A stretch of 64,000 bases of DNA from Armatimonadota bacterium (GCA_036504855.1 DASXUL010000039.1:15582-79581); one strand, 5' to 3'. Counted from the stretch's first letter, positions 1 to 53,686 are shown. The notes: generated by a model not told the origin, from the sequence alone. Made by a program: numbers and translations.

Positions 1-1677
1 ACCGCCAACACGGAGTTCGTGGAGCTGTACAATCGAACCAGCGCGGAGATCGATCTGGCCGGCTACCGGCTCGTGTACCGCTCGGCGGCCGGGACGACCG
101 ACACCACGCTCTGCACGTTCGGCCCGGTCTCCATCCGTGCGGGGCGCACCTACCTGGTTGCCACCGCCGATTACTCCGGGCCAAAAGACGCGGGGATGAC
201 GGCGGGGCTGGCCGGCGGCGGCGGCTCGGTGGCCCTGAAAGACGCCGGCGGGACGGTGCGCGATGCCGTGGGTTGGGGCGCCGTCGATAACGACTATGTA
301 GAGATCTCGCCGGCGCTGGCCCCGGCGGCCGGACAGAGCATCGAACGCACTCCGGACGGGCAGGACACGAATGTGAACGCGGCGGATTTCCGCCTGCGAG
401 CATCGCCAACGCCGGTTCCGGGGGCGGTGCAGCCCGTCGTCGCCGGCGTGGCGTTCAGCCCGGCCGCCGTCGATCCGGGCGGATCAACAACTCTGACGGC
501 CACGGTGACGCCCGGCGGTTCCGCCGTAGTCTCCGTCGTGGCCGATCTCACGGCCGTGGGCCTGGCATATGAGGAGCCGCTGACTCGCGGCGCGGGCGGC
601 GCGTGGATGAGGACTCTGAGCGTTTCCGCGCTGACCACGCCGGGGGCTAAGAACGTGTTGGTTACCGCCGCGGACGCGGACGGCCTGGAGGCGTCTCGGG
701 CCGGCGTCCTGAGCGTGAATGCGCCGCCCCCGCCGCCCGTGAAGGTGAACGAGGTGAAAACCGGCGGCGGCGCGTCCGCGGCGGACGAGTTCGTCGAGGT
801 CTACAACCCATCTCTGGAGGATGCCAATCTGAACGGATGGAGCCTCGTCTACCGCGCGGCAGCCAGCTCGGCCGAGACCGCGCTTGTCTCCTTCGGGGCT
901 GCGACGCTGAAGGCCGGGGGATATCTGGTGTTCGGAGGGACGGCGTTCGCGGGGGCGAAGGACGGGGCTTTGGCGGGCAGCCTCACATCGGAGGGCGGGG
1001 CCGTGGGGCTGCGCGATCCGTATGGACGCGTGGTGGATTCGGTGGGATATGGGACGGCGACGAACGCGTTAGTGGAGGGGAAGCCGGCGGCCGCCCCGGC
1101 GGTGGGCCAGAGCATAGAGCGGAACCCGGCCGGGCATGACTCCGGAGACAACTCCGCCGATTTCCGCGTCTGCGCGCAGCCCACGCCGATGCCTCTGACG
1201 GCGTGTCCGTGGGTGTCCGGAGTGACCTTCGCGCCGAACCCCGCAGCGGCGGGTGGGGCCGCCACGGTGAGCGCGTTGGCCTCGCCGGGCTCGGCGGACA
1301 TCGCGGCTGTCGAGGCGGACCTGTCATCCCTGGGGCTCTCATCCGCCGTGCCGATGGCGAAGGCGGGGGCATTGTGGAGCGCCTCGTTCACGGCGCCGGC
1401 GGGAGCGGCAACCGGGAGCCATACAGCCAGTGTGAAGGCGACGGATGCGGCGGGACACTGGGCGTGCGCGTGGGGGGTACTGAGCATTGCGAACGGCACG
1501 GCGAAGGGCGATGCGAACGGAGATGGCAGAATTGACGCGGCGGACGCCGTTCTGGCTTTGCAGTTGGCGGGCGGGCTGGCCTCGCGGGGCGGTGCGGACG
1601 TGTCGGGTGACGGGCGCGCGAGCGTGGAAGATGCGTTGCGGATCCTGCGCGCGGCCCGTAACGGGTCGCCGCTTTGA
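1..1677 (+). CDS. Secreted lamin-tail-domain (LTD) protein with C-terminal dockerin-like Ca-binding repeats; 5' end truncated by the window edge
   Basis: The frame is open from nt 1 (TANTEFVELYN...). Two LTD signatures are present (EFVELYN...DLAGYRL and EFVEVYNPSLEDANLNGWSL). The C-terminus carries two dockerin-type repeats (DANGDGRIDAADAVLALQLAGG and ADVSGDGRASVEDALRILRAA). Confidence 0.75.
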   Translation, partial: TANTEFVELYNRTSAEIDLAGYRLVYRSAAGTTDTTLCTFGPVSIRAGRTYLVATADYSGPKDAGMTAGLAGGGGSVALKDAGGTVRDAVGWGAVDNDYVEISPALAPAAGQSIERTPDGQDTNVNAADFRLRASPTPVPGAVQPVVAGVAFSPAAVDPGGSTTLTATVTPGGSAVVSVVADLTAVGLAYEEPLTRGAGGAWMRTLSVSALTTPGAKNVLVTAADADGLEASRAGVLSVNAPPPPPVKVNEVKTGGGASAADEFVEVYNPSLEDANLNGWSLVYRAAASSAETALVSFGAATLKAGGYLVFGGTAFAGAKDGALAGSLTSEGGAVGLRDPYGRVVDSVGYGTATNALVEGKPAAAPAVGQSIERNPAGHDSGDNSADFRVCAQPTPMPLTACPWVSGVTFAPNPAAAGGAATVSALASPGSADIAAVEADLSSLGLSSAVPMAKAGALWSASFTAPAGAATGSHTASVKATDAAGHWACAWGVLSIANGTAKGDANGDGRIDAADAVLALQLAGGLASRGGADVSGDGRASVEDALRILRAARNGSPL

Positions 1678-1965
1678 CAGCCAGCCGCTTGCCCGCTCAT
1701 GTAGGAAAAGGGAGGGCGACGGTGTATAAGGAATTACGGATATGATGTCGTGAGAAGCTGAGACGCCTTTCCACCTCTGTCTTCTGCTTCCGCGGCGCGT
1801 GTTGACGCGTTTCAAGCGCGTTTTCGGTTTGTTCGCCACGCCGCGCTCCGGCTACTGGGGGGCAGGAGCGCTGTCGTCGCCCAACCCCGGCGTTGGTGTT
1901 CCTTGCCGCGGTCCGCCCCTGGACCGCCCTGTTGCGAGACGTTTCGAATCGAAAGAGGAACAAGC

Positions 1966-4900
1966 ATGATCCTTCCATTCCGCATCCCCCGTTGGGCCGC
2001 CCCGGCAGCGCTGGGCCTGGCCCTCGCGGCGCCGTCATGGGCCGCCATTTCCGTTACGGATGTGTCCATCAGTCCGGGGACCGGCGGCGACATCTTCCTA
2101 AAATATCGCCTCAATGAGGCGGCCTCCAGCGTGTCCATCAACCTGAGCGGCGGCTCGTCCGTCACCGGCGCCACGGCGAAGGGACTGAACACCGTCACCC
2201 TGACGCACGCGGTGGCTGGGCAGACGGCCACGATCACCGCGACGGCGCCGGCCGAAGCGGGCGGCGCGGCAGGCGCCGTTCTGGTTGTCCCGGTGACCAC
2301 TCCGGACAACCGGGCGACGCCCTCATCCACCAACCTCGTCGGCGTGGATGTGAACAAGCGCATCAACTCCGCCGGGAACGTTTACGGCGCCGCCCTGGGG
2401 CATATCTACCTCCCAACCGGGTTCAACCAGGCCGGACAGAAATACTGCTGGGTGTACGCCTCTGACGGCACGATGCTGTTCAACAAGAACCTGGGCGATG
2501 TGGCTACAAGCGGCTCGTGGCCGTACGGTATGGCCGTGGCCCAGGGCGATCCGAATGACCACGTTGTTATCCATAACCGCTCTCTTGCTAAGAACTGCGT
2601 TTTCAACGCGGACCTGAGCCTCACATTCGCCGCCCCGTACAACTACACGAACGGGGTGCCCGGCATGTGCATCACCCCGAACCCCTCGGATGCGACCCTG
2701 AAATTCAATATCTGGCAGGCGGGTCCCAAGGACAAGGGTGTCCGCCGCACGAAGGCCGATCTCGCAACCGCGGCCGGATTCGACTACAACACGACCACCT
2801 TCGCCATTGAGGCCGGCAACGATGGCGAGAACGTGCATGACATCGCCGTGGACCTGACGAACGCCGTGATGTTCAAGGCGCAGGTGACCGACGGCGGCGT
2901 CGGCGCCCTCAGCACCGGCGGCGTGAACAAGTGGACCTCGGCGGACGCCGGGGACAACTGGACCGAAGACACCACGTGGTTGACGGCCTTCCTCAATAAC
3001 GTAACGGCGGACCTTGCCGCCGCGGGCAGCGCGCTGACCACGGCAGACCTCGTCGGCGGCGGCGTGGGGTTGGCTCCCGGCTTCAACGCGGCGAACATGT
3101 CGAACTCCAGCGCATGGGTTGCGGTTTCCAGCAGCCTTGCCGTTCCGTTCTTCAACCGCATCTACCGCGTGAACGCGGCCACCGCCGCCATTGAACAGAC
3201 GATCGACGTGCAGCAGATCCCGACGCCGACCGGTGGTGTGGCCATTGCCGGCAAGTCCGTCCGCTTCGTAGAGGCGGATGCTGTCGGGAACCTCTGCATC
3301 GGCCTGAACGCCGCGGCGGCAATGACCGGTCAGTCTTCGCGTTACTTCGCCGTGTTGGGGCCCAACCAGACCGGCGCGAACAGCGCCAGCGTGGGCGGCA
3401 TCTTCATCTCCGCTCCTCCGCAGATCAGCGTCTCGGTGGACAAGAACGTCGTGGCAAACACCGGCGCGATCACGGTGAATTTCACGGCGCAGGTGACGGA
3501 CACCTCCGGCATCGTGGCGGACAACGCCCAGGTGACGGCGGACCTCTCCGCCATCAAGGGGCCGCCCTCGGCGACCCTCGTGCGCGGCGCCGTGTCGGCT
3601 GACGGCTTCTCGGCACCTTACACAGTCTCCTACCTCGTTCCGAAGGACGTGGACCTCTCCAACTCCGGTTCGTTCGACCTCCCGTTCACGTTGGCCACAA
3701 CCTCCACGCCGTCCACGGTGGCCCGCGTCACCGTGGCAGTCTACAGCGCTTATACTCCGGCGTGGTCGCTGACCACCGATGGCGCGGTGAACTCCTCGCC
3801 GGTAACCAACGGCGTGTACGCCTACTTCGGCGATGACGCCGGCAAGGTGTATGAAGTAAACACCGCAACCGGCGCCCTGGTGAGCGCGTTCGGCGCTGGC
3901 GGGGCGGTTACGCTGCCCGAGCCGGTGAAGGGCAAGCTGGCCTACGATGCCGGCAAGCTGTACGTGGCCACCTCGGGGCACGTCTACGTGCTGAACGGCG
4001 GAACCGGGTCCATCCTGGCCTCCCCGGCAGTTGCCGGCGTTTCGTCGCTGGCGGTTAGCCCGCTGATTCCGAATGCGGTGTTCGCGGCGGCCGGCAACAC
4101 GATTGTGAAGCTGAACGCCACAACGGGCGCGCAGCTTGCCGCCACGCCGGATCTCGGCGCGGCCGTGAACCGCGTTAGCCTCATCCCGAGCTCCGCCAAC
4201 GACGCCACGCAGGCCCCAGCGGTTGCCCTGGTTGTGACCGGCACGGAAGGTGACTCCACGGGCAAGAACGGCAAGATCGTGATTGCCTCGGCCGGCAACC
4301 TTGGCGCCGTGTTCAGCGACGCCAACAGCGTTCCCACCCTCACCCCGTTCACCGATGCCAACGGCCCGGTTCGCTCGCAGGCGACCTTCGGCAACGACGG
4401 CACGATCAACTTCTTCGCCATCGGCGGCGCCTCCGGCCTCTGGGCCGTGAACGCGGATGCCGGGACACTGCTGGAGTGGGTCGCCAACTCGGGCGGCGGC
4501 GCCAACAACGGCGGCAACCCCTACACTCCGGGCAGCCCGGTAGACGCCGATCCCGTTGTGCCCATCGTGGGCGACGGCTCGTTTGGGCGGGAGGACACCC
4601 GGTTCGCCTTCGCCACGGCGGGCAGCGCCTCGCAGGGCGGCCAGCTCAACGTCCTGACCAGCAGCGTCGGTGAGCGCGCCTCCTACGGCGGCTACCCGGT
4701 TCCGCTTACCCCGATCGGATCCGGTTTCGCGGCCGGCGCCGGGCTGTTCGCCGTCAACACGGCGGACGGACCTCGCGTCATTTACCTCGGCAGCGATGCC
4801 GTGGACAAGCGGTTCTTCGCGGTGGAAACCGAACCCGACGACATCTCATACAGCGCCACCGCCGACAAGAAGCATATCTTCGACCCGAAGGACACGCTCG

Positions 4901-5508
4901 CCTTCCCAGGCGCCGCGGCCGGCGCCTTCAACAGCGCGCCCGCGCTGTCTGGCGATAAGGTTGTGGTCGGCTCCGCCGCCCGCCGCGTCTACGGGTTCGC
5001 CTCCCTCACCGCCGTCCAGCCGTGGGTTACCAGCGTTACCCCGGCCAACGGCTCCGCCAGCGCCACGGCTCCGGCCAGCATCACCCTGACGTTCAGCGGC
5101 GACATCAGCACCTCTCCGATCGATTCCTCCACAGTGAAGTTGCTGGACAGCGCCGGCGCCGCGGTGGACGCGTCTCCGGCCCTTGGGGCTGACCTCAAGA
5201 GCATCGTCATCACGCCGGCGAGCCCGCTCTCGCTGAACAAGACCTATACCGTGGTGGTGGACGCCACCGTGTCGCAACCGTTCTCCTCTTCGTTCGCCAC
5301 GGCTCTGCCCGCGGTGGTGAAGGGCGACGTTAATGGCGACGGCCAGTTCAACGCCCAGGACGTGAAGGACGCCCTGAAGATGGCCAGCGGCCTTCTGCCC
5401 GCCACCGACAAGGCCATCACTGCTCTCAACAAGACCAAGCCGTACAGCATCACGGTTGGAGACGCCGTCTTCATGGACCGCGTGCTGGGCGGAAAGGCCT
5501 CCTTCTAG
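1966..5508 (+). CDS. Large secreted cell-surface protein (about 1180 aa) with a signal peptide, PQQ/BamB-like beta-propeller repeats, an Ig-like (Big/SbsA-type) domain and a C-terminal dockerin-like repeat
   Basis: I chose the ATG at 1966 inside the longer ORF because it is preceded by gaaagaggaa (an RBS) and starts the signal peptide MILPFRIPRWAAPAALGLALAAPSWA. Repeated GxxYxxxxxGxVYxxNxxTGxxL motifs indicate a beta-propeller. The C-terminus has DVNGDGQFNAQDVKDALKMASGLL. The 552-aa antisense ORF 2323..3981 was rejected. Confidence 0.8.
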   Translation: MILPFRIPRWAAPAALGLALAAPSWAAISVTDVSISPGTGGDIFLKYRLNEAASSVSINLSGGSSVTGATAKGLNTVTLTHAVAGQTATITATAPAEAGGAAGAVLVVPVTTPDNRATPSSTNLVGVDVNKRINSAGNVYGAALGHIYLPTGFNQAGQKYCWVYASDGTMLFNKNLGDVATSGSWPYGMAVAQGDPNDHVVIHNRSLAKNCVFNADLSLTFAAPYNYTNGVPGMCITPNPSDATLKFNIWQAGPKDKGVRRTKADLATAAGFDYNTTTFAIEAGNDGENVHDIAVDLTNAVMFKAQVTDGGVGALSTGGVNKWTSADAGDNWTEDTTWLTAFLNNVTADLAAAGSALTTADLVGGGVGLAPGFNAANMSNSSAWVAVSSSLAVPFFNRIYRVNAATAAIEQTIDVQQIPTPTGGVAIAGKSVRFVEADAVGNLCIGLNAAAAMTGQSSRYFAVLGPNQTGANSASVGGIFISAPPQISVSVDKNVVANTGAITVNFTAQVTDTSGIVADNAQVTADLSAIKGPPSATLVRGAVSADGFSAPYTVSYLVPKDVDLSNSGSFDLPFTLATTSTPSTVARVTVAVYSAYTPAWSLTTDGAVNSSPVTNGVYAYFGDDAGKVYEVNTATGALVSAFGAGGAVTLPEPVKGKLAYDAGKLYVATSGHVYVLNGGTGSILASPAVAGVSSLAVSPLIPNAVFAAAGNTIVKLNATTGAQLAATPDLGAAVNRVSLIPSSANDATQAPAVALVVTGTEGDSTGKNGKIVIASAGNLGAVFSDANSVPTLTPFTDANGPVRSQATFGNDGTINFFAIGGASGLWAVNADAGTLLEWVANSGGGANNGGNPYTPGSPVDADPVVPIVGDGSFGREDTRFAFATAGSASQGGQLNVLTSSVGERASYGGYPVPLTPIGSGFAAGAGLFAVNTADGPRVIYLGSDAVDKRFFAVETEPDDISYSATADKKHIFDPKDTLAFPGAAAGAFNSAPALSGDKVVVGSAARRVYGFASLTAVQPWVTSVTPANGSASATAPASITLTFSGDISTSPIDSSTVKLLDSAGAAVDASPALGADLKSIVITPASPLSLNKTYTVVVDATVSQPFSSSFATALPAVVKGDVNGDGQFNAQDVKDALKMASGLLPATDKAITALNKTKPYSITVGDAVFMDRVLGGKASF

Positions 5509-5513
5509 ACGAG

Positions 5514-5658
5514 TAGCTGTCAGCTATCAGCTATCAGCGATCAGCTATCAGCGATCAGCCGAACACCCCGCCCATGAGGAAACCATCCTCACGGGCGGGG
5601 TGTTCGGCTGAATGCTGAATGCTGAATGCTGAATGCTGAATGCTGATAGCTGACAGCT
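5514..5658. repeat. Intergenic palindromic element A. It has perfect 17-bp terminal inverted repeats, inner 7-bp tandem units (CAGCTAT/CAGCGAT on the left, GCTGAAT x4 on the right) and a central 15-bp-stem hairpin
   Basis: agctgtcagctatcagc (5514-5530) is the exact reverse complement of gctgatagctgacagct (5642-5658). The central stem ccgaacaccccgccc / gggcggggtgttcgg spans 5559-5607. The element lies between convergent genes, and the MFS stop codon (cta at 5657-5659) sits inside the right terminal repeat. Confidence 0.7.
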
Positions 5659-6868
5659 ATTCCCTCAGCGTTCCCAGGTTGCGGAGTTCGGGCCAGAGGC
5701 AGGCCACGGCGGCGACCACCAGGATGCTGCCCACGCCGCCCGCCACCACGGAGGCGACAGGGCCGAAGAGCTGGGCCACGGCGCCGCTCTCGAAGCCGCC
5801 GAGCTGGTTGCTGGCGCCGACGAAGAGGCTGTTTACCGCGCTCACCCGGCCGCGCAGATGGTCCGGCGTCCGTAACTGCACCAGTGACTGCCGCACGATG
5901 ACGCTGATGTTGTCCACGGCGCCCAGCAGGAAGAGCATCGACATCGAGAGCCAGAACGAACGCGAGAGGCCGAAAACCACGGTGACGACGCCAAACCCGG
6001 CCACGGCGAGGATCAGGGTGCGTCCTGCCCGGCGCATCGGAGGCCGGTGGGCCACCGAAACCGCCATCAGGGCCGCGCCCACGCTGGGGGCGGCCCGGAG
6101 CCAGCCCAACCCGCTGGGACCAACGTGCAGGATGTCTTTCGCGTAGATCGGCAGCAGGGTTGCGGCGCCCCCCAGCAGGACCGCGAACATATCCAGCGTT
6201 ATCGAGGCCAGAATGATGCGCGTCTGCAGAACGAAGCGCAAACCGGCCAGCAGCGTGCGCCAGTTCACTTCCTCGCGCTTTCGAGCGGCGGCCACGGTTC
6301 GAAGCGCCCACACGAAACCGAAGTGCCACAGCGCGAAGGCGGCGGCCACCCAGTAAACCGGCGCGGCCGCCTTCGCCACCCCGATGAGCAGCCCGCCGAG
6401 CGCCGGGCCCGCCACGCTGCCGATCTGGAAGATGCTGCTGTTCCAGGTGACGGCGTTGCTGAAATCGCGCTCCGGCACGAGTTGGGGCAGCAAGGAGGAC
6501 ACAGCCGGGTTACGGATGGCCCTCGACGTGGCGCCCACGAAGAGAAGGGCATAGTAGGCGGCCACAGGGCCGTGGGCGTGGGAGATCGCCGCCAGCGCCA
6601 GGGAGCAGAGCACGGCTATGGCCTGGGTGAACAGCACGATGCGACGGCGGTCGAACCGGTCCGCGGCATGTCCGGCCGGGAAGGTGAGAAGGAGGACCGG
6701 GAGGATTTCAACGAGTCCCACCAGGCCGAGGGCCATGGCGGAATGCGTTCGCTCGTAGAGCTCCCAACCCACGGCGACATCCTGCGCTTGCATCCCGATG
6801 ATGGAGAGGATATTGCCCGTGGCATAGCGCCGGAAATTCGCGTGGCGCAACGCTGAGTACGGGTCCAT
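5657..6868 (-). CDS. MFS transporter (enterobactin-exporter EntS-like family)
   Basis: A 403-aa polytopic membrane protein. The N-terminus LRHANFRRYATGNILSIIGMQAQDVAVGWELYERT and the overall pattern of 12 transmembrane segments are typical of the MFS superfamily. Confidence 0.85.
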   Translation of the reverse strand: MDPYSALRHANFRRYATGNILSIIGMQAQDVAVGWELYERTHSAMALGLVGLVEILPVLLLTFPAGHAADRFDRRRIVLFTQAIAVLCSLALAAISHAHGPVAAYYALLFVGATSRAIRNPAVSSLLPQLVPERDFSNAVTWNSSIFQIGSVAGPALGGLLIGVAKAAAPVYWVAAAFALWHFGFVWALRTVAAARKREEVNWRTLLAGLRFVLQTRIILASITLDMFAVLLGGAATLLPIYAKDILHVGPSGLGWLRAAPSVGAALMAVSVAHRPPMRRAGRTLILAVAGFGVVTVVFGLSRSFWLSMSMLFLLGAVDNISVIVRQSLVQLRTPDHLRGRVSAVNSLFVGASNQLGGFESGAVAQLFGPVASVVAGGVGSILVVAAVACLWPELRNLGTLRE

Positions 6869-6883
6869 AGGTGCAGTATGTCG

Positions 6884-7036
6884 TTATGAGTCATCAGTCG
6901 TCAGTCGTCAGTCGTCAGTCGTCAGTCCGGATGCCGTCTGCCGCCGAGAACGCCTCAATCACCGTTCTGGGCATTCGGGCTGATGACTGACGACTGACGA
7001 CTCATGACCGACGACTCATGACCGACGACTGATGGC
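6884..7036. repeat. Intergenic palindromic element B. It consists of a tandem GTCAGTC/GTCATCA 7-mer array, a unique core and an inverted CGACTGA/TGACGAC array
   Basis: gtcatcagtcgtcagtcgtcagtcgtcagtcgtcagtccgg ... gggctgatgactgacgactgacgactcatgaccgacgactcatgaccgacgactgatgg. The right arm extends over the last six codons and the TGA stop of the DUF309 gene (7016-7036). Confidence 0.7.
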
Positions 7037-7363
7037 TATCCCATCCGGCGGGAGGGCCTGCGGAGCCGTTGCCAGCCATGCGCGGATGGGCGGGAGGCAC
7101 AGGCCTTCGTCATCGGCGGGATCGGCGGATTCGAGGTGGGCGAGGGCTCGGGCCCAGAGGACGCGGGCGCCGTACAGGTTGCCGCGAGAGGCGTGGTAAC
7201 AGCCGACGGCGAGCTGTATCAGGCCCTGCATGGTGTGGCTGCGGGTGAGGCGCCAGCGCGGTTCGAGCGCGTCGTGGGCGGCATGATACTCGCCCGCCTG
7301 GAAGAGGTTGAGGAAGAGCGCCACGTCTGGTTCTACGCTTGCCTGGGTTATGTCTTTGGGCAT
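7016..7363 (-). CDS. DUF309-family small protein (115 aa)
   Basis: The C-terminal 115 aa of a 393-aa ORF. The segment starting MPKDITQ contains FLNLFQAGEYHAAHDALEPRW, which is the DUF309 signature (FNxGxYxEAHExLExxW). The start was chosen at the ATG at 7363, and the upstream part of the long ORF was rejected as non-coding. Confidence 0.5.
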   Translation of the reverse strand: MPKDITQASVEPDVALFLNLFQAGEYHAAHDALEPRWRLTRSHTMQGLIQLAVGCYHASRGNLYGARVLWARALAHLESADPADDEGLCLPPIRAWLATAPQALPPDGIAISRRS

Positions 7364-7444
7364 GGTCTGTATTATAATCCGAGTGGCAGGCTCCGTTTCG
7401 GAGCGTGCGAATTTCCCTTTGAGAACCATTGGAGGAAGACAACA

Positions 7445-8035
7445 ATGCGATGGACCCTCGGAGTCGCCGCTCTGGCCACCGTCACCATGTGTTCGGGCTC
7501 GATGGCCCGGGCCGCCGACAGCCTGACCGGCCAGCAGATCGTGATCAAGGGCGGCGTCACGCGCCCCACGGACGGGGATGTTAAGGCCGTCGGCAACGAC
7601 TGGTTCACCTACGGCGCCGAGTATCAGTTCGGCGACCCGGACGCCAAGGCCGTGAACGGCATCGAACTCCTCTACACCAAGAAGAGCGACACGGTGACCA
7701 ACGTGGGCACATTGGGCATCCCGACGGATTACTCGATGTTCTCGCTGATGCTGAACCACAAGATCCGTCGTCCGGATCCGGATGGCACAACGGCCGGAAA
7801 AGTCTTCTTCTACGGCGCCGGAGTGGGCGTGGACTTCATCCGCGTGAAGATGGACGATCCCAACCCGGGCGGCCAGACGATTGATGACAAGTCCACTGTG
7901 CTGGGCGGCAACCTGTTCGCGGGCTACGAGTTTTCCTCCAACGTCCAGTTGGAGTTGAAGTACCAGATCCCCTTCAAGAAGGTGAACGACACCAAGTTCG
8001 ACGGCCTCCAGCTTCTGGCCGGCATTAAGTTCTAG
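7445..8035 (+). CDS. Secreted outer-membrane beta-barrel-like protein (196 aa) with a C-terminal Phe
   Basis: An internal ATG at 7445 is preceded by GGAGG (7428-7432) and begins the signal peptide MRWTLGVAALATVTMCSGSMARA. The protein has alternating amphipathic beta-strands and the terminal ...LLAGIKF typical of outer-membrane beta-barrel proteins. The N-terminal 103 aa of the 299-aa ORF were rejected. Confidence 0.6.
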   Translation: MRWTLGVAALATVTMCSGSMARAADSLTGQQIVIKGGVTRPTDGDVKAVGNDWFTYGAEYQFGDPDAKAVNGIELLYTKKSDTVTNVGTLGIPTDYSMFSLMLNHKIRRPDPDGTTAGKVFFYGAGVGVDFIRVKMDDPNPGGQTIDDKSTVLGGNLFAGYEFSSNVQLELKYQIPFKKVNDTKFDGLQLLAGIKF

Positions 8036-8076
8036 CGCGGCCGCCGGGCAAGTCTGGCGGAGCCGCGCCGGATCGG

Positions 8077-8142
8077 CGAGGGGCCCTCGGGCTCTCGTTT
8101 TCCAAACAGGGAAGCGAGAGCCCGAGGGCCCCTCGTTTCTCC
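8077..8142 (+). terminator. Rho-independent-type terminator hairpin with a perfect 21-bp stem plus a T-rich tail, located between convergent genes
   Basis: cgaggggccctcgggctctcg (8077-8097) pairs with cgagagcccgagggcccctcg (8115-8135) and is followed by tttctcc. Confidence 0.6.
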
Positions 8143-8183
8143 GCCTGCCGGCAGGGTGTATCCCGTTCCGGGCCGGGCGGGCT

Positions 8184-10037
8184 TCAGCCCAGCCCATTGG
8201 CGACCCTGGCTATCGCCGCTGCATCCCGAACGGTGATGAGTCCGTCATAGTCGAGATCACCAAGGGTGAGGATGTCGGCGGAGTCTGGGGTCAGGCCGCC
8301 CGCAACCCGCAACACGGCGGCGATGTCCTGCGCGTCCACTTTGCCATCCCGGTTCACGTCTCCGGCCGCGGCGCCGATGACCAGCGGCCCCAACGCGCTT
8401 CTCAGCCCCGTGAAGTTCGCGCTGCCGATCCCGGTGACGTAGTCCCAGCCGCTCGTGCATGAGAACAACCCATTGTTCCCCACCGTGACGTCATGGAAGG
8501 GCGCTCCGCCTTTCACCTTGCTGAAGACCTGGTAGAGCAACGGGCTGAGGAAGAAGGGCTTCCCGAGCGACTGCTGGATCAGGAGCAGGCCAGCCGCCCA
8601 TTCCGGCGCGGCGGCGCTGGTGCCGCCCCCGTAGAACCAGGCGGTGGTCGTGTTGACGGTGAGGTAGACAACGTAACCGGTGCTGGGGCTGGCATCCATC
8701 GAGACGTCTGGAAGCTGGCGCTTTCCATTGCTCGATCCGTTCTGCACGCCGGGGCCGGTTTGCCACGCCGGTCGTGGGAAGTAAAGGCTGAGCCCTCCTC
8801 CGCTGCCGGTGATCTTTCCGCTTACCGTGCCGCCCCAGCCGGTCTCGTGATCGTATGCGTCACCGGTTGCGGCGAAGAGGTTGGTTCCGCCGACGGCAAC
8901 GACGTAGGGGTCCGATGCCGGATGCGAAACCGCCACCGTGCCGTCCTGCGCTTCGTTGGATCCATTGTCGCCGCTGGAGTTGAAGATGGTGAGCCCTTCC
9001 GCGGCGGCTTGCTGGAAGACCTGGTGGTACGCGTCGAAATCGGCGGGCGCGAGTTGGTCTTCCCCGATGCCCCAACTGCTCGTCATGATCTTCACGTCGG
9101 TCTGGTTGGCGAATCGGTCGTAGATATCGAACACGGCGTTGCTCGAATTCGCGCCCAGCCACACCTGAATCTGCGCGCCCGGCGCCGAACCCAGCGTCAA
9201 CTCGGCGTCGAGGTCGGCCTCCTCGCTGTGTTGGGTCGTGCCGCCGTCCACGGCAACCCGCGTGACGTTGGCGGCGTTGAGGGCAGCGGAGGATGGAGGG
9301 AAGGCGAACTGGTTCACATGGGCGGCGTAGTTGGTGAGGTTGCTGGACGAGTAGTCCGCCAGGGAGTAGATGGCGATTTTCTGACCGGTCCCATCGACGC
9401 CGGCGTTGCGAAGGCCCTGGTAGTTGTAGAGCCTGTTGATGGCAGTCGGGGTAAACGGCGGCGTGCCGTTGTCTCGGGGTTGATACACCAGGGCGTTGGT
9501 GAGGCCCTGCACGGAGACCAGTCCGTTCGCGCTCACGCCGGCCGGAATGGCCGGGGTCCGATCATTGGCGAAGACCTCCCGCCCTCGCAGCCTGTAGCGG
9601 TTGAGGTGGACGCTGAACGCCTGCTCCAACTGCGCGGCGGCGCCTGTGGCGGTGATGCTGGAGCGGGCTGCGGACGTGCGGGTAACCTTGAGGCCGGAGA
9701 TGACGAGGTAGTTCAGCACGGAGGCGTACTCCGCGGGCGACGGGCCGAACCGCGCGCCGAATTCCCGAGGCGTCAGATAACGGAGGAACTGCGGTGACGA
9801 GGGATCGCCTTGCTCGGCAATGAGCCGGTCCACGGCGTCTGGATTCCGCAGAGGGAGGACAACCGTAACAGATAGAGGGGTTTCGGCCGCGAGGCGGCCA
9901 ATGGGAGCTTGCCCGGCCAACTGGGGCGGCGCCTGGGTGTGGGCTGGCTTCAAACTGATCTCGGCGGCGAATCCGCGCGCGGCGAGGTTCGCGAGGGCGG
10001 CGAGCCACGCCAGGCGGCGATGGTAACCGATGCTCAC
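8184..10037 (-). CDS. S53 (sedolisin/kumamolisin-type) serine peptidase with a pro-domain and two C-terminal dockerin-like repeats
   Basis: A GTG start at 10037 is preceded by AAGGAGG (reverse complement of 10049-10055) and begins the signal peptide VSIGYHRRLAWLAALANLAARGFAA. A pro-kumamolisin activation region is followed by an S8/S53 catalytic region (SGDNGS, GGTSAAAPEWAG). The C-terminus has DVNRDGKVDAQDIAAVLRVAGGL and DLDYDGLITVRDAAAIARVANG. Confidence 0.85.
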   Translation of the reverse strand: MSIGYHRRLAWLAALANLAARGFAAEISLKPAHTQAPPQLAGQAPIGRLAAETPLSVTVVLPLRNPDAVDRLIAEQGDPSSPQFLRYLTPREFGARFGPSPAEYASVLNYLVISGLKVTRTSAARSSITATGAAAQLEQAFSVHLNRYRLRGREVFANDRTPAIPAGVSANGLVSVQGLTNALVYQPRDNGTPPFTPTAINRLYNYQGLRNAGVDGTGQKIAIYSLADYSSSNLTNYAAHVNQFAFPPSSAALNAANVTRVAVDGGTTQHSEEADLDAELTLGSAPGAQIQVWLGANSSNAVFDIYDRFANQTDVKIMTSSWGIGEDQLAPADFDAYHQVFQQAAAEGLTIFNSSGDNGSNEAQDGTVAVSHPASDPYVVAVGGTNLFAATGDAYDHETGWGGTVSGKITGSGGGLSLYFPRPAWQTGPGVQNGSSNGKRQLPDVSMDASPSTGYVVYLTVNTTTAWFYGGGTSAAAPEWAAGLLLIQQSLGKPFFLSPLLYQVFSKVKGGAPFHDVTVGNNGLFSCTSGWDYVTGIGSANFTGLRSALGPLVIGAAAGDVNRDGKVDAQDIAAVLRVAGGLTPDSADILTLGDLDYDGLITVRDAAAIARVANGLG

Positions 10038-10121
10038 TTTCGGTCTTTCCTCCTTTATGTGATCGGAGCCGGCAGCCGCCGCTTGCCGCCTGCCGCGTGG
10101 GGCGGCGCTGAGACGCGGGAA

Positions 10122-10250
10122 ACCACAGAGACATAAGGGCGCAAAGGGCGGATGAAAGGGATCGATTGGGGGGAATGCCGGGCCCAACACGATCCACCTC
10201 CCCATCTATACCCCTTTCATCCGCCCTTTGCGCCCTTGTTTCTCTGTGGT
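10122..10250. repeat. Long inverted repeat with about 39-bp arms (36/39 identical) separated by a 50-nt loop. It lies upstream of the S53 peptidase gene
   Basis: accacagagacataagggcgcaaagggcggatgaaaggg (10122-10160) matches the reverse complement of cccctttcatccgccctttgcgcccttgtttctctgtggt (10211-10250). The right arm overlaps the last codons of ORF 10217..10669. Confidence 0.6.
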
Positions 10251-10669
10251 TGCTCCGCCAGGCCTTCCAGCCACCGGCGGAAGGCGTAACGCGCCGCCGG
10301 GCGAGCCAGGGCGGCGAGGCCGGGGATGGGAAATCGGGTCCAAACCTGCAGGCGCGCTTCGCACCCGCCGGATGGCGTTGGCGTTAGCAGCAGACGGCCG
10401 CGCTGCGCTACGCCTAACGAGGCGCTTACCGAAAGCCAGACGACCGCGGAGGGGCTCCACGCCTTGACGAAAGTCATGCGCAGCCCTAGAGGCAGGAACA
10501 CGCGATAGCGCACCCATCCGTCACCGCGCGCCAGCACATCCACGCGGCGGACGAATGGGATGAGTTCCGGCTCCAACTCTACGCGCGAGACCAGAGCCGC
10601 CGCCAAGGCGGGCGGCGCCGGATTGCGGGCGCTCACGCACAGGATGAGGCATTTCGATCGGTCAGCCAT
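10217..10669 (-). CDS. Hypothetical protein (150 aa), possibly SRPBCC-like
   Basis: It is the only sizeable ORF between the peptidase gene and the divergent downstream gene, with no recognisable catalytic motif. Its 3' end is embedded in the arm of the long inverted repeat. Confidence 0.35.
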   Translation of the reverse strand: MADRSKCLILCVSARNPAPPALAAALVSRVELEPELIPFVRRVDVLARGDGWVRYRVFLPLGLRMTFVKAWSPSAVVWLSVSASLGVAQRGRLLLTPTPSGGCEARLQVWTRFPIPGLAALARPAARYAFRRWLEGLAEQPQRNKGAKGG

Positions 10670-10786
10670 CAGTCTACAGCCATTGGCAGGGGCGGGCGGA
10701 GTTCGGCCGTCCGCCCGATGACGGAAAACCGGTAACTCAAGGCGGAATTTGCGTTTGATGGGCCCGGCGGGCGTGGGATAAACTCC

Positions 10787-11044
10787 ATGTTACGCATGAA
10801 CGCGGGCACGCGCCCATGCGGGGAGGGTTATCCGATGAAGCCCGCATTGTACGGCTGGAAGGACATGCTGCATGACTACACGCAGCTCCTTCTGAACGAC
10901 CGCTGGTATTGGTGCCGCCACTGCCGTCGTCCCGTTGAACACGTGCAGATCCCGCCTCCGGGCAGCCCCCCGGACGCGACCTCCCTAACGTGCCTCGATT
11001 GCGGCTACGCCGACCCGGAATTCCTGCACCTCCCTCGGATGTAA
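10787..11044 (+). CDS. Small zinc-ribbon protein (CxxC...CxxC), hypothetical
   Basis: An 85-aa ORF containing CRHCRRP ... CLDCGY. A start at the internal MKPALYGW is also possible. Confidence 0.4.
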   Translation: MLRMNAGTRPCGEGYPMKPALYGWKDMLHDYTQLLLNDRWYWCRHCRRPVEHVQIPPPGSPPDATSLTCLDCGYADPEFLHLPRM

Positions 11045-11163
11045 GCTGTCAGCCGTCAGCTGTCAGCCGTCAGCCCAGAGGGTCCGCCTGTGCAGACGCC
11101 GCGCTCTCTTGGGTCAGCCTTCCGGCTGATGACTGATGACTGAAGGCTGACGACTGACTACTG
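11045..11163. repeat. Intergenic palindromic element C, a compound of 7-mer arrays (GCTGTCA/GCCGTCA) plus a D/E-like unit
   Basis: gctgtcagccgtcagctgtcagccgtcagcc ... ggtcagccttccggctgatgactgatgactgaaggctgacgactgactac, located immediately after the stop codon of the preceding gene. Confidence 0.65.
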
Positions 11164-11237
11164 CCTCAGTGCTCTGTTCGGGTGGTTCTGTGAGTTGGTC
11201 GCGTCCGTAGGAAGCACCTTCTGTGTGTGAAAGGCTG

Positions 11238-11335
11238 GCGGGCAGGGCAAGCCCAGCCCCTACCAGGTCGGGGTCTCCATCCACCCATCGGTGGACGGCC
11301 GGGCCTACCGGGTCGGGGCTGGGCTTGCCCTGCCC
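11238..11335 (-). terminator. Large GC-rich hairpin (perfect 21-bp stem, 54-nt loop with an inner palindrome) downstream of the pilin operon
   Basis: gggcagggcaagcccagcccc (11240-11260) pairs with ggggctgggcttgccctgccc (11315-11335), and the loop contains tccacccatcggtgga. It lies 59 nt beyond the 3' end of the PilX-like gene. Confidence 0.5.
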
Positions 11336-11393
11336 TCGGAGCCTCAGATTGGCCCTCGCGCCCCGCAGTAACAGATCCTACCGAACGCGGCGC

Positions 11394-12713: not shown

Positions 12714-12766
12714 CTGCGTCTCCTTCGCGCCCACAATACCGGGAATCATAAAGGCCGCGCCCGCGG

Positions 12767-13812: not shown

Positions 13813-13843
13813 ATGCAGCCTCCTGGGTCTCGGGAAAAGCGAT

Positions 13844-14308: not shown

Positions 14309-14465
14309 GGCAATTTCCCTCGTGTGCCCCCGAGATGAGGGCATCCGAGGGGTTATGCCACGGTTCAACTCTCTGCCTGCCCGGCATGAAGTACGAAATC
14401 GGATGAGCCTATGGGAGTGGCCTTTCCGTAGCCGCCGCCATAGGCGCATCGTGCCCGGTCTGCTG

Positions 14466-36737: not shown

Positions 36738-38498
36738 TCAGGGGTTGGCCTCAACGCCGGAGACCTTTCGCATAAGCGTCAGGGCATCCGCCATGTCCAC
36801 CTGTCCTCCCGCGGGGCTCGCCACGTTCAGGTACATGTCGGGCGAAGCGGCCGCTCTCAGGCCGCTCGAGATGGCGAGCGCCTTTGAAACGTCTGTCAGC
36901 GCATACGCGCGCCACGGGCCCAGCGCCGAGGCGGCCATCGGCACGTCCTGAGTTGTCACCGCGCCGGGGGAGATGGTCACCGGGCCCATTCGCGTGGCCA
37001 GGCCAGGCGCGGAGACCGACATGCTGTAGTCTCCGGGCGGCAGGTCCACAAACCCGTAGAAGCCGGTTCCATCTGTCTTCGCGGTGCGCCGAACCGGGCC
37101 CGCGAGGCTCACCGTGGCTCCGTCCAGCCAGCCGGGGCTGGGAGCTCCGCTGTCCCAGGCGGTTCCCATCAGGTGCCCCTTGCCGTTGGTTAAGCGCGGC
37201 AGGGCCGGAATCGGCGCAACATCCGGGTTCAGGGGCGCTGCATCCTCGGGGATGCCGTTCGCCATCGCGTTCGCCATCCCGGCGGGGTCGGGCACGATGC
37301 TCCCACCGCATGTGTCCGCGTAGGGCGAGGCGTAGGAGTAGAGGTTGTAGCCCTGAGCGGTCATCCCCATCGATGAGGAAGGCGCGCGGCTGCGCTTCAG
37401 TTGAGAGATGGCGTCGGCCAGCGTGTTGAGGTAGGTTCCGGGCCCGATGATGCACTGGCGGGCAAACGTGTTGTCCTTCGTGAAATCCTGCCAGTTCTCA
37501 AAATCTGCGTCGTTCCGGCAGCTTCGGAAGTAGTTCATCGGGATGGCGATATCCACGATTCCCTCCTGCATCCAGCCGCGCCAATCCTGGTACACGCCGG
37601 TGTAGGCGCCCGAATTGTACTCGAAGTTCGTTTTCCACGTTGCCCGGGGGTCCGTGTCGTCAGGGCCGGGGTGCGGCGGACTGGGCGTCCAGGTAATCGT
37701 GTCAGCCGTGATGCGGATTCCGGGTCGGATGGCGATGCAGGTGAGGTAGATCTTGCGCATGACGTTGGTCACCTGGTCCCGCCGCCACTGCTTGAATGCG
37801 TCATCCGTGGTGGCTGGGACGCCGGTTGCCCCGGTGAGGGCATTGAAGCGTCGCACGGAGACGTCGTTGAAGCCGTTCCTGCCGTCGGTGAACCGGATGT
37901 AGTCGAAGTTCAGGCCGTCGATAGCGGTGTTGGTCACGAGGTCCCGGCATGTGTTAACCAGTTGCTGCTCCACGCCGGGGTGGCCGGGGTCGAAGTCCGT
38001 CTGCGCGCTGCCATTGGCGTTCACCGTCACCCAGTCAGGATGGTTCCAGAGGATGGGTCCGGCTGCGCGGAAGGAGACAAGCCACGCCCACACATCCAGG
38101 CGTTGGCGGCCGCCCGAAGTGTCGTGCGCCTGAGCGATGCATTCCGCCAGCGGGTCGAAGTCCCCTCCGCTGTTCGTTTCGGGCTCGCTGGAGAGATCAC
38201 AGGCGATACGGAGATTGTTGCTGACGATGGTTCCGCCCAGCGACGGGTAGAAGTCCGGAGCCGCGTTGTAGTAGACGAGCTGGGAGCCCTTGTTCACGAG
38301 GATCTCAGGGATGAGCACGTTACACCGGCCATCGCGCAGGTTCTGGACGGAAGTCGTCACGTCGTCGGCCGTCAGGTAGCCGGTATGGAAGGCATCCAGC
38401 CACTGCGCCCGATACTCCGGCGGATCGGCGGCCGGCGACCGCCCCGCCGCCATCGCTATGAGCCCACACAAGCAGAACCCCATGGCCTTACTTCGCAT
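36738..38498 (-). CDS. Secreted glycoside-hydrolase-like (GHL10/YddW-type TIM barrel) protein with a CarbopepD_reg-like beta-sandwich and a C-terminal dockerin-like repeat
   Basis: A start at 38498 has GGAGG 7 nt upstream. A signal peptide is present. The C-terminal DGTGFYGFVDLPPGDYSMSVSAPG resembles a carboxypeptidase-regulatory-like fold, and the terminal ...QVDMADALTLMRKVSG resembles a dockerin half-repeat. The GHL10 assignment is tentative. Confidence 0.5.
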   Translation of the reverse strand: MRSKAMGFCLCGLIAMAAGRSPAADPPEYRAQWLDAFHTGYLTADDVTTSVQNLRDGRCNVLIPEILVNKGSQLVYYNAAPDFYPSLGGTIVSNNLRIACDLSSEPETNSGGDFDPLAECIAQAHDTSGGRQRLDVWAWLVSFRAAGPILWNHPDWVTVNANGSAQTDFDPGHPGVEQQLVNTCRDLVTNTAIDGLNFDYIRFTDGRNGFNDVSVRRFNALTGATGVPATTDDAFKQWRRDQVTNVMRKIYLTCIAIRPGIRITADTITWTPSPPHPGPDDTDPRATWKTNFEYNSGAYTGVYQDWRGWMQEGIVDIAIPMNYFRSCRNDADFENWQDFTKDNTFARQCIIGPGTYLNTLADAISQLKRSRAPSSSMGMTAQGYNLYSYASPYADTCGGSIVPDPAGMANAMANGIPEDAAPLNPDVAPIPALPRLTNGKGHLMGTAWDSGAPSPGWLDGATVSLAGPVRRTAKTDGTGFYGFVDLPPGDYSMSVSAPGLATRMGPVTISPGAVTTQDVPMAASALGPWRAYALTDVSKALAISSGLRAAASPDMYLNVASPAGGQVDMADALTLMRKVSGVEANP

Positions 38499-53353: not shown

Positions 53354-53686
53354 GTGAACCGCATGCGAACAGCGCTCGTGATCGGGCTTGCTGCCGTTTC
53401 TACCGCCGCTATCGCTCTTCCAGCGATGCTCCCAATCTTCGGCGCCGCATACAAGCAGGTCCCGAAAGGGTCGGCGTTGGCGAAGGCGAACTGCGCAACG
53501 TGCCACACCGCCGCCCCGAAACTCAACCCTTACGGAACCGATATCAAGAAGGCCCTCGGCAAGAGCAAGACGCTGACCCCCGAAGTCTTGAAGGCGGTCG
53601 AATGCCTGGATTCGGATAAGGACGGCGTTAAGAACATCGACGAGATCAACAAGGGCTCCCTGCCCGGCGATCCCAAGAGCAAGTAA
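53354..53686 (+). CDS. Small monoheme cytochrome c with a signal peptide and a C-terminal EF-hand/dockerin-like Ca-binding loop
   Basis: A GTG start has AAGGAGG 5 nt upstream. It contains CATCH and DSDKDGVKNIDEINKG. Confidence 0.6.
   Translation: MNRMRTALVIGLAAVSTAAIALPAMLPIFGAAYKQVPKGSALAKANCATCHTAAPKLNPYGTDIKKALGKSKTLTPEVLKAVECLDSDKDGVKNIDEINKGSLPGDPKSK

What the first reader, a model, noticed from the sequence alone, without database searches (positions are those of the whole stretch)
1..10037. Cluster of secreted proteins with C-terminal dockerin-like modules (LTD protein, beta-propeller/Ig protein, S53 peptidase)
Three large secreted proteins within 10 kb end in duplicated 22-residue Ca-binding repeats of the dockerin type (DxNxDGxxxxxDxxxxL...). 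The small cytochrome c at 53354..53686 carries a single similar loop (DSDKDGVKNIDEINKG), as may the GHL10-like protein at 36738..38498. Dockerins normally imply a cohesin-bearing scaffold. Several functionally unrelated exoproteins carry them here: an LTD adhesin-like protein, a propeller protein and a sedolisin protease. This points to a general cohesin-dockerin-style surface-display or sorting system rather than a cellulosome. A small outer-membrane beta-barrel gene (7445..8035) sits among them.
Basis: partly seen in the sequence, partly recalled or inferred. Interest (0 to 1): 0.6.

Follow-up and report, generated by a model that had tools for sequence, protein, structure and literature searches.

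The report
Dockerin-tailed secreted proteins in Armatimonadota
Three unrelated secreted proteins of an uncultured Armatimonadota bacterium (a protease, an adhesin-like protein and a propeller protein) end in genuine dockerin modules, a known kind of calcium-dependent protein-docking tag, but no matching cohesin partner could be found in the sequence available, so this is an ordinary new example of non-cellulosomal dockerins.

Summary
The core observation holds. Window 1-10037 encodes three Sec-secreted proteins that share nothing except a C-terminal dockerin module of about 65 residues. They are an LTD/Ig protein, a 1180-aa propeller/Big_5 protein and an S53 pro-kumamolisin.

- **Dockerin identity.** Two modules pass Pfam Dockerin_1. 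The AF2 model of the S53 module superposes on solved type I dockerins (TM 0.62-0.78).
- **The third module.** The propeller protein keeps only the first Ca loop. Its orthologues include members with an intact dockerin, so it is a dockerin by descent.
- **Conservation.** All orthologues recovered (41-58% identity) keep the module. Gene order around them is not conserved.
- **Other claims.** The GHL10 protein has a weak, Ca-loop-less relic of the same tail. The cytochrome c loop is only a generic DxDxDG motif.
- **Organism.** The source is an Armatimonadota MAG.
- **Partner.** I found no cohesin, SLH or known sorting-signal domain in about 55 window ORFs or about 110 genes of related loci. The whole genome could not be scanned.

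The "cohesin-dockerin display system" therefore remains a reasonable but unverified inference. The same idea has already been published for Planctomycetes ("planctosome"), Cloacimonadota and ANME archaea. Verdict: a new member of a known kind, of low to moderate interest.

The parts
1..1677 (+). P1: the 3' part of an 856-aa secreted protein. The full gene is in L001:15192-17762:-. Layout: signal peptide, three (LTD + Ig-like) units, C-terminal dockerin.
   Evidence: Pfam LTD 2.5e-28. Full translation with signal peptide MWRCASLFVGAAFAVGAMAPAHA. The JGI gene call lists LTD.
1501..1674 (+). P1 dockerin module, with two intact Ca loops: 1510-1545 DANGDGRIDAAD and 1597-1632 DVSGDGRASVED.
   Evidence: Regex hits. 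Pfam Dockerin_1 27.8 bits as an isolated module and 21.4 bits within the cut protein, against a threshold of 22.9.
1966..5508 (+). P2: 1180-aa secreted protein. Layout: N-terminal Ig-like region, PQQ-like beta-propeller, Big_5/CopC-like Ig domain, C-terminal dockerin-derived module.
   Evidence: Pfam Big_5 5.2e-11 and PQQ_2 4.2e-7. The family is rare: 11 representatives at E<=1e-30 among 1.84 billion.
5311..5505 (+). P2 dockerin-derived module. Loop 1 is intact (5326-5361, DVNGDGQFNAQD). Loop 2 is decayed (NKTKPYSITVGD), with the helix retained.
   Evidence: Pfam 17.7 bits, below threshold. Orthologue P0244 has an intact second loop and a precomputed Dockerin_1 hit. The decayed form is conserved in P0242, P0247, P0249 and P0255. 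The AF2 model is poor (pLDDT 55).
7445..8035 (+). Small (196 aa) outer-membrane beta-barrel protein lying between the carriers. No evidence links it to them.
   Evidence: Pfam OMP_b-brl 34.2 bits against a threshold of 28.7. No OMP_b-brl gene is listed near the dockerin genes in related loci.
8184..10037 (-). P3: 617-aa secreted S53 (sedolisin/kumamolisin) pro-peptidase with a C-terminal dockerin.
   Evidence: Pfam Pro-kuma_activ 9.1e-25 and Peptidase_S8. Aligns to pro-kumamolisin 1T1E over residues 35-551, E 1.4e-50, with the E..D, GD.GS and GGTS motifs aligned.
8187..8381 (-). P3 dockerin module, with two intact Ca loops: 8325-8360 DVNRDGKVDAQD and 8223-8258 DLDYDGLITVRD.
   Evidence: Pfam Dockerin_1 33.5 bits, E 4.7e-8. 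AF2 pLDDT 87.2 with three helices. The top 32 Foldseek PDB hits are all dockerins, TM (query-normalised) 0.52-0.78, 0.62-0.78 for the type I dockerins.
36738..38498 (-). Secreted GHL10 / CarboxypepD_reg protein with a possible relic of the same tail at its C-terminus (36756-36899).
   Evidence: Pfam GHL10 6.2e-23. Tail scores 16.8 bits, E 2e-4 within the window, against the lineage profile at HMM positions 18-65. Decoys reach at most 7.9 bits. No Pfam Dockerin hit.

Best explanation
**Shown**
- The C-terminal tails of P1 and P3 are bona fide type-I-like dockerin modules. Each has two F-hand repeats with a 12-residue Ca2+ loop followed by a helix.
- P2 carries a dockerin by descent in which the second Ca loop has decayed.
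- The modules are appended to unrelated Sec-exported proteins of an Armatimonadota bacterium.
- All orthologues recovered at 41-58% identity retain the module, so it is under selection.

**Inferred**
- As in every characterised dockerin, the module most likely works as a Ca2+-stabilised protein-protein docking tag.
- It would tether its cargo to a cohesin-type beta-sandwich module on another extracytoplasmic protein. The cargo here is an acid-type endopeptidase, an LTD/Ig adhesin-like protein, a propeller protein and possibly a GHL10 glycosidase.
- The effect would be to keep these exoproteins on the cell surface, or in a complex, rather than losing them by diffusion.
- The two repeats differ at the usual cohesin-contact positions (repeat 1 has A-[AQ] at positions 10-11, repeat 2 has V-[ERG]). 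This suggests a single binding mode rather than a dual one.
- The receptor is encoded elsewhere in the genome and was not seen.
For: - Pfam Dockerin_1 above threshold for P3 and P1.
- The P3 module model has pLDDT 87.2. It matches 32 solved dockerins at rmsd 1.2-4.1 A (1.2-2.7 A for all but the type II and type III complexes), while EF-hand proteins reach only TM about 0.3.
- Five Ca-loop motifs against 0.025 expected by chance.
- All seven closest P3 orthologues keep the tail.
- All eight long P2 homologues (seven full-length, one N-terminally cut) and one short C-terminal fragment keep the tail.
- P1 and P2 share only the dockerin repeat.
- A second dockerin carrier (a BNR propeller) lies 4 kb from the P2 orthologue in L011.
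- Signal peptides are visible. An OMP_b-brl gene indicates a diderm envelope.
- Single-loop dockerins are experimentally able to bind cohesin (PMC12270676).
- Dockerin-tagged peptidases and LTD proteins have been proposed to form such complexes in Planctomycetes and Cloacimonadota (PMC6461901, PMC8542988).
Against: - No cohesin (PF00963) or SLH domain was found in about 55 window ORFs. None is in the precomputed Pfam lists of about 110 genes in L001 and L006-L014.
- Cohesin and dockerin domains occur in diverse bacteria and archaea not thought to degrade cellulose (PMC9012536, citing Peer et al. 2009). From memory of Peer et al., many genomes with dockerins lack recognisable cohesins.
- Ca ligands have been lost repeatedly: the P2 clade, P0003/P0009 and the GHL10 tail. 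This is unusual for canonical dockerins.
- Gene neighbourhood is not conserved.
- It is unknown whether these proteins cross the outer membrane.
Confidence: 0.55

Rival explanations
1. These are orphan dockerins. The modules are real dockerin folds, but the genome has no cohesin. They would act as Ca2+-dependent stabilising or solubility tails, or bind something other than a cohesin, such as a glycan, the LTD/Ig modules of other exoproteins, or an outer-membrane component.
For: - No cohesin or SLH domain was seen in any sequence examined.
- Non-cellulosomal cohesin and dockerin domains of unclear function are reported as widespread (Peer et al. 2009, as cited). That dockerins often occur without a cohesin in the same genome is from memory of that paper.
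- The helices are conserved while the Ca ligands decay. This hints that the selected surface is not the canonical Ca-dependent one.
Against: - Only about 1-2% of a typical genome was examined, so absence is not established.
- Every dockerin whose function has been tested binds a cohesin (general knowledge).
- Single-loop dockerins still bind cohesin.
Confidence: 0.3
2. The tail is a sorting or secretion tag. The C-terminal module would be recognised by an export or attachment machinery (for example a T2SS-like system built from the neighbouring pseudopilins, or an unknown sortase-like enzyme), in the manner of T9SS CTD or PEP-CTERM signals.
For: - The module sits at the extreme C-terminus in all carriers.
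- It occurs on unrelated cargo.
- A pseudopilin gene cluster lies next door at 11394-14488 (N_methyl, DUF7305).
- A conserved terminal AGKASF motif is present in the P2 clade.
Against: - NCBIfam gave no hit at E<=0.01 to any family other than weak domain-level matches on P1, P2, P3 or GHL10. In particular there was none to PEP-CTERM, T9SS-CTD or LPXTG-type signal models.
- The fold is that of a docking module with solved cohesin complexes.
- A C-terminal position is also the norm for cellulosomal dockerins.
- Pseudopilin genes are not adjacent to the orthologues in other loci.
Confidence: 0.1
3. The match is a chance or compositional artefact: Asp/Gly/Ala-rich C-termini in a 66% GC genome that merely resemble dockerins.
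For: - The high-GC proteome is rich in A, G and D.
- P2 and GHL10 fall below the Pfam threshold.
Against: - Five motif hits against 0.025 expected.
- Decoy profile scores reach at most 7.9 bits, against 62-91 bits for the three modules.
- The fold match is confident.
- The tail is conserved in orthologues.
Confidence: 0.02

Closest known systems
Non-cellulosomal dockerin-bearing proteins (Peer, Smith, Bayer, Lamed & Borovok 2009, FEMS Microbiol Lett 291:1; cited in PMC9012536 and PMC8542988)
   Same: C-terminal Pfam PF00404 modules sit on secreted proteins that are not cellulases, in an organism not thought to degrade cellulose. No multi-cohesin scaffoldin is evident.
   Different: Armatimonadota carriers of this kind (S53 peptidase, triple LTD protein, the rare P2 propeller family) were not found in the literature I could search. 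The survey itself could not be read here.
'Planctosome' hypothesis in freshwater Planctomycetes (Andrei et al. 2019, ISME J, PMC6461901)
   Same: A diderm bacterium has an LTD-containing protein plus dockerin-tagged peptidases, proposed to form a cohesin-dockerin complex for degrading protein rather than cellulose.
   Different: There the LTD protein carries the cohesin and acts as anchor, and the cohesin genes were identified. Here the LTD protein itself carries a dockerin, no cohesin was found, and the peptidase is S53 rather than M12B or M14.
Cellulosome-like complex of Ca. Stygibacter (Cloacimonadota) (Williams et al. 2021, PMC8542988)
   Same: Signal-peptide enzymes with C-terminal dockerins include an S8/S53 serine peptidase. 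The predicted role is degradation of polypeptides and polysaccharides.
   Different: That genome encodes a 3755-aa scaffoldin with tandem cohesins and a T9SS-type CTD anchor. No counterpart was seen here.
Type I dockerins of Clostridium thermocellum / Acetivibrio cellulolyticus cellulosomes (PDB 1OHZ, 2CCL, 4FL4, 4DH2, 5NRM)
   Same: The same three-helix, two-F-hand fold (TM 0.68-0.74 normalised to the query, rmsd 1.3-1.9 A, 26-28% identity). The D/N ligands are at loop positions 1, 3, 5, 9 and 12.
   Different: - The host is a diderm Armatimonadota bacterium and the cargo is not CAZymes.
- The helix signature is D-x3-4-L-[KRQ]-x-A-[GA]-G-L, in place of the Ser-Thr / Lys-Arg recognition pairs (from memory).
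- The two repeats are dissimilar.
- No cohesin is known.
Group-2 single-loop dockerins of Ruminococcus flavefaciens (Duarte et al. 2025, PMC12270676)
   Same: These are naturally reduced dockerins bearing only one Ca loop, as in P2 and P0003/P0009. They are shown to be functional.
   Different: Those are truncated modules in a Firmicutes cellulosome with a known cohesin (ScaE). Here the second repeat is retained in length but has lost its Ca ligands.

Membership tests
Dockerin type I (Pfam PF00404) | Sequence match to the family model at or above the gathering score (22.9 bits) | tested here: met
   - P3: 27.8 bits in the whole protein and 33.5 bits as an isolated module.
- P1: 27.8 bits isolated and 21.4 bits in the cut protein.
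- Not met: P2 (17.7 bits), the GHL10 tail (no hit) and cytochrome c (no hit).
-.
Dockerin type I (Pfam PF00404) | Two tandem repeats of about 22 residues, each with a 12-residue Ca loop (D/N/S/T at positions 1, 3, 5, 9, 12 and G at 6) followed by a helix | tested here: met
   Read directly from the sequence.
- P1: DANGDGRIDAAD and DVSGDGRASVED.
- P3: DVNRDGKVDAQD and DLDYDGLITVRD.
- P2 meets this for repeat 1 only. Its repeat 2 (NKTKPYSITVGD) lacks D1, D5 and G6.
Dockerin type I (Pfam PF00404) | Three-helix fold superposable on solved dockerins | tested here: met
   - P3 module: pLDDT 87.2. The 32 best PDB matches are all dockerins, query-normalised TM 0.52-0.78 (0.62-0.78 for type I).
- P2 module: inconclusive, with pLDDT 55.4 and no significant match.
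Dockerin type I (Pfam PF00404) | Ca2+-dependent folding and binding to a cognate cohesin | not testable with these tools
   This needs recombinant protein (CD or ITC with and without Ca2+, pull-down) and a candidate cohesin.
Cohesin-dockerin assembly (cellulosome-like system) | A cohesin-bearing (PF00963) scaffoldin or anchor protein encoded in the same genome | tested here: inconclusive
   None was found in about 55 window ORFs or in about 110 genes of L001 and L006-L014. The rest of the MAG could not be searched.
Cohesin-dockerin assembly (cellulosome-like system) | A cell-surface anchoring module (SLH, sortase signal, T9SS CTD) on the scaffold | tested here: inconclusive
   No SLH hit in the same Pfam scans. 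No scaffold candidate is available to test.
Cellulosome proper | The dockerin cargo is dominated by plant-cell-wall CAZymes | tested here: not met
   The cargo is an S53 peptidase, an LTD/Ig protein and a propeller/Big_5 protein. The only glycosidase-like carrier is GHL10, with a doubtful tail.
Canonical EF-hand proteins (calmodulin-like) | Helix-loop-helix pairs matching the EF-hand models and fold | tested here: not met
   EF-hand Pfam hits are all below threshold (13-22 bits against 25-30). EF-hand structures superpose at only TM about 0.3 and rmsd above 10 A.
Known C-terminal sorting signals (PEP-CTERM, T9SS CTD, LPXTG) | Match to the NCBIfam/TIGRFAM signal-domain models | tested here: not met
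   An NCBIfam scan of P1, P2, P3 and GHL10 at E<=0.01 returned no such family.
Sedolisin / kumamolisin (MEROPS S53), for P3 | Pro-kumamolisin activation domain, an S53 catalytic domain, and the Ser-Glu-Asp catalytic residues | tested here: met
   - Pro-kuma_activ 9.1e-25 and Peptidase_S8 2.3e-9.
- Alignment to 1T1E at E 1.4e-50.
- EEADLD, SGDNGS and GGTSAAAP align to the kumamolisin catalytic motifs. The residue roles are from memory of the family.

The most novel reading that the evidence does not exclude
Armatimonadota may use dockerin-derived C-terminal tails, including versions that have lost one or both Ca loops but keep the helices, as a general address tag. The tag would attach diverse exoproteins to a receptor that is not a recognisable cohesin, for example an outer-membrane or pseudopilus-associated protein. 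That would be a diderm surface-retention system distinct from the Firmicutes cohesin-dockerin-SLH scheme.
Probability: 0.1. Interest if true: 0.6.

Novelty: new member of a known kind. Interest (0 to 1): 0.25.

Why it matters
If a partner exists, this would extend cohesin-dockerin-type exoprotein tethering to Armatimonadota, a poorly studied diderm phylum. The cargo would be a protease and adhesin-like proteins rather than cellulases. That would add to the scattered proposals (planctosome, Cloacimonadota, ANME) that the dockerin is a general extracellular assembly tag. The repeated loss of Ca ligands with the helices retained could show which part of a dockerin is actually needed for function. 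As it stands, the finding is an annotation-level observation. The JGI pipeline had already attached PF00404 to the S53 gene.

Tried and rejected
- **Profile search with three modules.** A 63-aa profile against 5.8 billion proteins gave one hit. The E-value penalty was too great for so short a query, and the search was wasted.
- **Genome-contig scan with P3.** It found no close relative among GTDB species representatives. It returned only a 28%-identical S53 and two dockerin-only matches in Eubacteriales and Bathyarchaeia.
- **Metagenome-contig scan.** The P2-tail alignment returned 17 loci of very mixed GC content (0.26-0.64). They show that such tails are common, but they were not lineage-specific and so gave no help in finding a partner.
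- **Synteny.** The cluster is not conserved. Only an S13 peptidase plus acetyltransferase block is shared between the window (34-37 kb) and L011.
- **Shared modules.** BLASTP of P1 against P2 found only the dockerin repeat.
- **AF2 of the P2 tail.** Confidence was low and the fold search was not informative.
- **afdb50 fold library.** Not available.
- **Large orphan secreted proteins as hidden cohesins.** The proteins at 50504-53023 and 39375-41162 gave no Pfam, NCBIfam or PDB sequence match. This is uninformative.
- **Peer et al. 2009.** Could not be read.
- **Cytochrome c as a carrier.** Rejected.
- **Rfam and tRNA scans of the window.** Both empty.


Full report
**What is there**

GC3-guided ORF calling and the JGI gene calls on an almost identical metagenome contig give this gene order for window 1-10037. 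The contig is L001/L012, 99.97% identical to window 1-11255.

| Gene | Coordinates | Notes |
|---|---|---|
| P1 | (cut)..1677 + | 856 aa in full |
| P2 | 1966..5508 + | 1180 aa |
| MFS_3 transporter | 5657..6868 - | |
| DUF309 protein | 7016..7324 - | |
| OMP_b-brl barrel | 7445..8035 + | 196 aa |
| P3 | 8184..10037 - | 617 aa; GTG start behind an AAGGAGG Shine-Dalgarno |

P1, P2 and P3 all begin with plausible Sec signal peptides, read directly from the sequence.

- P1 is three (LTD + Ig-like) units.
- P2 is an Ig-like N-terminus, a PQQ-like propeller and a Big_5/CopC-like domain.
- P3 is a pro-kumamolisin. It aligns to PDB 1T1E over residues 35-551 at E 1.4e-50, with the catalytic motifs in place.

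The genes do not form an operon. P1 and P2 are co-directional with a 288-bp gap that contains terminator-like hairpins. P3 is on the other strand, behind three unrelated genes.

Yes, in its core. A regex for the dockerin Ca loop over all six frames of the 64 kb finds five sites, all in the last 65 residues of these three proteins. Residue shuffles give 0.025 on average.

- As isolated modules, P3 scores 33.5 bits and P1 27.8 bits against Pfam Dockerin_1 (threshold 22.9).
- P2 reaches only 17.7 bits because its second loop has lost the ligands (NKTKPYSITVGD).
- The AF2 model of the P3 module, built with nine aligned modules, has pLDDT 87.2 and three helices.
- Its 32 best PDB matches are all dockerins, mostly type I (1OHZ, 2CCL, 4FL4, 4DH2, 5NRM and others), at query-normalised TM 0.52-0.78 and rmsd 1.2-4.1 A; the type I matches lie at TM 0.62-0.78 and rmsd 1.2-2.7 A. 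EF-hand proteins superpose only at TM about 0.3.
- The P2 tail modelled poorly (pLDDT 55.4) and its fold search was uninformative.

**The P2 tail is a dockerin by descent**

P2 belongs to a rare family, with 11 representatives at E<=1e-30 among 1.84 billion.

- All eight long homologues (41-58% identity; one of them N-terminally cut) and one short C-terminal fragment keep the C-terminal module.
- P0244 and P0245 have an intact second loop (DVNGDGKVTLED and DLNGSGTLTLED). P0244 carries a precomputed Pfam Dockerin_1 hit.
- P2, P0242, P0247, P0249 and P0255 share a decayed but conserved second repeat (NK.T.GSITVEDAVFL..VLAGKASF).

**Conservation of the P3 tail**

All seven closest P3 orthologues (45-56% identity, from metagenomes only) end in the same module. 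In two of them, P0003 and P0009, loop 2 has also lost its ligands. More distant S53 peptidases (41% identity or less) carry other C-terminal domains instead.

The tail is therefore a selected feature of these protein families. Ca site 2 has been lost more than once while the following helix stayed conserved.

**Other claimed carriers**

I built an HMM from the window modules plus orthologue tails and ran it against the window.

- It finds the three proteins at 56-91 bits.
- A fourth hit is the extreme C-terminus of the secreted GHL10/CarboxypepD_reg protein (window 36756-36899, minus strand). It scores 15-17 bits and E 2e-4 to 7e-4 within the window. The match covers HMM positions 18-65, meaning both helices but neither Ca loop.
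- Reversed and shuffled decoys never exceed 7.9 bits. A similar relic ends a CotH-LTD-Ig protein two genes away from the P3 orthologue in L006.
- I regard the GHL10 tail as a probable decayed dockerin, but this is not established.
- The small cytochrome c (53354-53686) has a single DxDxDG-type loop 15 residues from its C-terminus. It has no dockerin or EF-hand hit in Pfam and no profile hit. It is not a carrier.

**Organism**

The RarA protein of the window is 100% identical to a protein annotated 'MAG TPA: Armatimonadota bacterium' on an 89.5-kb contig. The next relatives (78-84% identity) are also Armatimonadota or unlabelled metagenome proteins. No close relative exists among GTDB species representatives. 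The OMP barrel gene and the pseudopilin genes at 11394-14488 fit a diderm with type IV pilus or T2SS-like machinery.

**Search for the partner**

I scanned about 55 window ORFs with Pfam. I also read the precomputed Pfam lists of about 110 genes in L001 and L006-L014.

- There was no cohesin (PF00963) and no SLH hit.
- NCBIfam gave no PEP-CTERM, T9SS-CTD or LPXTG-type signal on the carriers.
- The two large orphan secreted proteins (50504-53023 and 39375-41162) match nothing in Pfam, NCBIfam or PDB sequences.
- Neighbourhoods of the orthologues are not conserved. L011 does hold a second dockerin carrier, a BNR propeller, 4 kb from the P2 orthologue.

The whole MAG could not be scanned with the tools and caps available. 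The decisive test, cohesin present or absent in the genome, stays open.

**Mechanism**

Shown:
- The tails are dockerin modules by sequence, fold and loop chemistry.
- They sit on unrelated exported cargo.
- They are conserved in orthologues.

Inferred from the established behaviour of the family:
- They act as Ca2+-stabilised docking tags for a cohesin-type module on another extracytoplasmic protein.
- This would retain the protease, the LTD/Ig protein and the propeller protein at the cell surface or in a complex.
- The two repeats differ at the usual contact positions, so a single binding mode is more likely than a dual one.
- Loss of one Ca loop does not rule out function. Single-loop group-2 dockerins of R. 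flavefaciens bind their cohesin (PMC12270676).

I put this reading at about 0.55. The rivals are:
- orphan dockerins with a non-cohesin role or a merely stabilising role (0.3);
- a sorting or secretion tag (0.1);
- a chance artefact (0.02 or less, and conceivable only for GHL10).

**Comparison with what is known**

Non-cellulosomal dockerins and cohesins are long known in bacteria and archaea (Peer et al. 2009, cited).

- The specific idea of dockerin-tagged peptidases plus an LTD protein forming a proteolytic surface complex was published as the 'planctosome' for Planctomycetes (PMC6461901).
- Dockerin-tagged S8/S53 peptidases with a cohesin scaffoldin were described in Cloacimonadota (PMC8542988).
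- ANME archaea have many dockerin and cohesin proteins (PMC9012536).
- I found no paper in the searchable library reporting dockerins in Armatimonadota.

The finding is a new member of a known kind.

**Verdict**

The core is right. P2 has one Ca loop rather than two, cytochrome c is not a carrier, and GHL10 is doubtful.
- Interest is 0.25.

Noticed in passing
window 5515-5653, 6889-7034, 11044-11163, 29003-29075, 30347-30419 (possibly 33757-34159): Intergenic 'heptamer-armed hairpins'. The left arm is 5-7 tandem copies of a 7-nt unit (for example AGCTATC or AGTCGTC). The right arm is tandem copies of a roughly complementary heptamer (clearest at 6889-7034: AGTCGTC against CTGACGA). Between 0 and about 50 nt separate the arms, and at 5560-5606 the spacer is a GC-rich stem-loop. 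They sit between genes, often convergent ones, and give no Rfam hit. They could be REP-like elements or bidirectional terminators.
   Followed up: partly
window ~11255 (intergenic, 10670-11394): The JGI metagenome 3300035523 splits this window over two contigs. Ga0376481_001035 matches window 1-11255 and then continues into different genes (Aldolase_II/adh_short, TrmD). Ga0376481_000516 carries the right-hand part. The break lies beside a heptamer hairpin and a 46-nt inverted repeat (11240-11335). It may be an assembly join or a strain rearrangement.
   Followed up: partly
window 59658-63635 (continues beyond the window in L014): A tandem array of paralogous membrane proteins of about 420 aa, with three in the window. 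L014 shows five gene products of 377-435 aa in a row (two more, of 374 and 293 aa, lie just upstream), none with a Pfam hit; only the three copies in the window were compared with each other. They are 32-35% identical to each other. They share an ADIRKG..ES..GPPP motif and have only a faint Peptidase_M48 similarity (E 0.012).
   Followed up: partly
window 50504-53023 (-) and 39375-41162 (-): Two large signal-peptide proteins (839 and 595 aa) have no Pfam, NCBIfam or PDB sequence match at all.
   Followed up: partly
window 53354-55576 (+): A small mono-haem cytochrome c ends in a lone DxDxDG Ca-type loop (DSDKDGVKNIDE). It lies directly upstream of a fused multihaem cytochrome (Cytochrome_C7 / paired CXXCH) and cytochrome b561-like membrane protein.
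   Followed up: partly
window 11394-14488 (-): A pseudopilin/pilin gene cluster lies next to the dockerin cluster. It comprises a 451-aa DUF7305 protein, a 227-aa N_methyl protein and a PilA/GspG-like pilin. An O-antigen-ligase/TPR protein follows at 14466-16583.
   Followed up: no
JGI 3300048101 contig carrying P0242 (no DNA held); L011:17703-18923: The rare P2 family occurs as tandem paralogues (P0249-like and P0242) on one metagenome contig. In L011 a 406-aa BNR-propeller protein with a Dockerin_1 tail lies 4 kb from the P2 orthologue.
   Followed up: no
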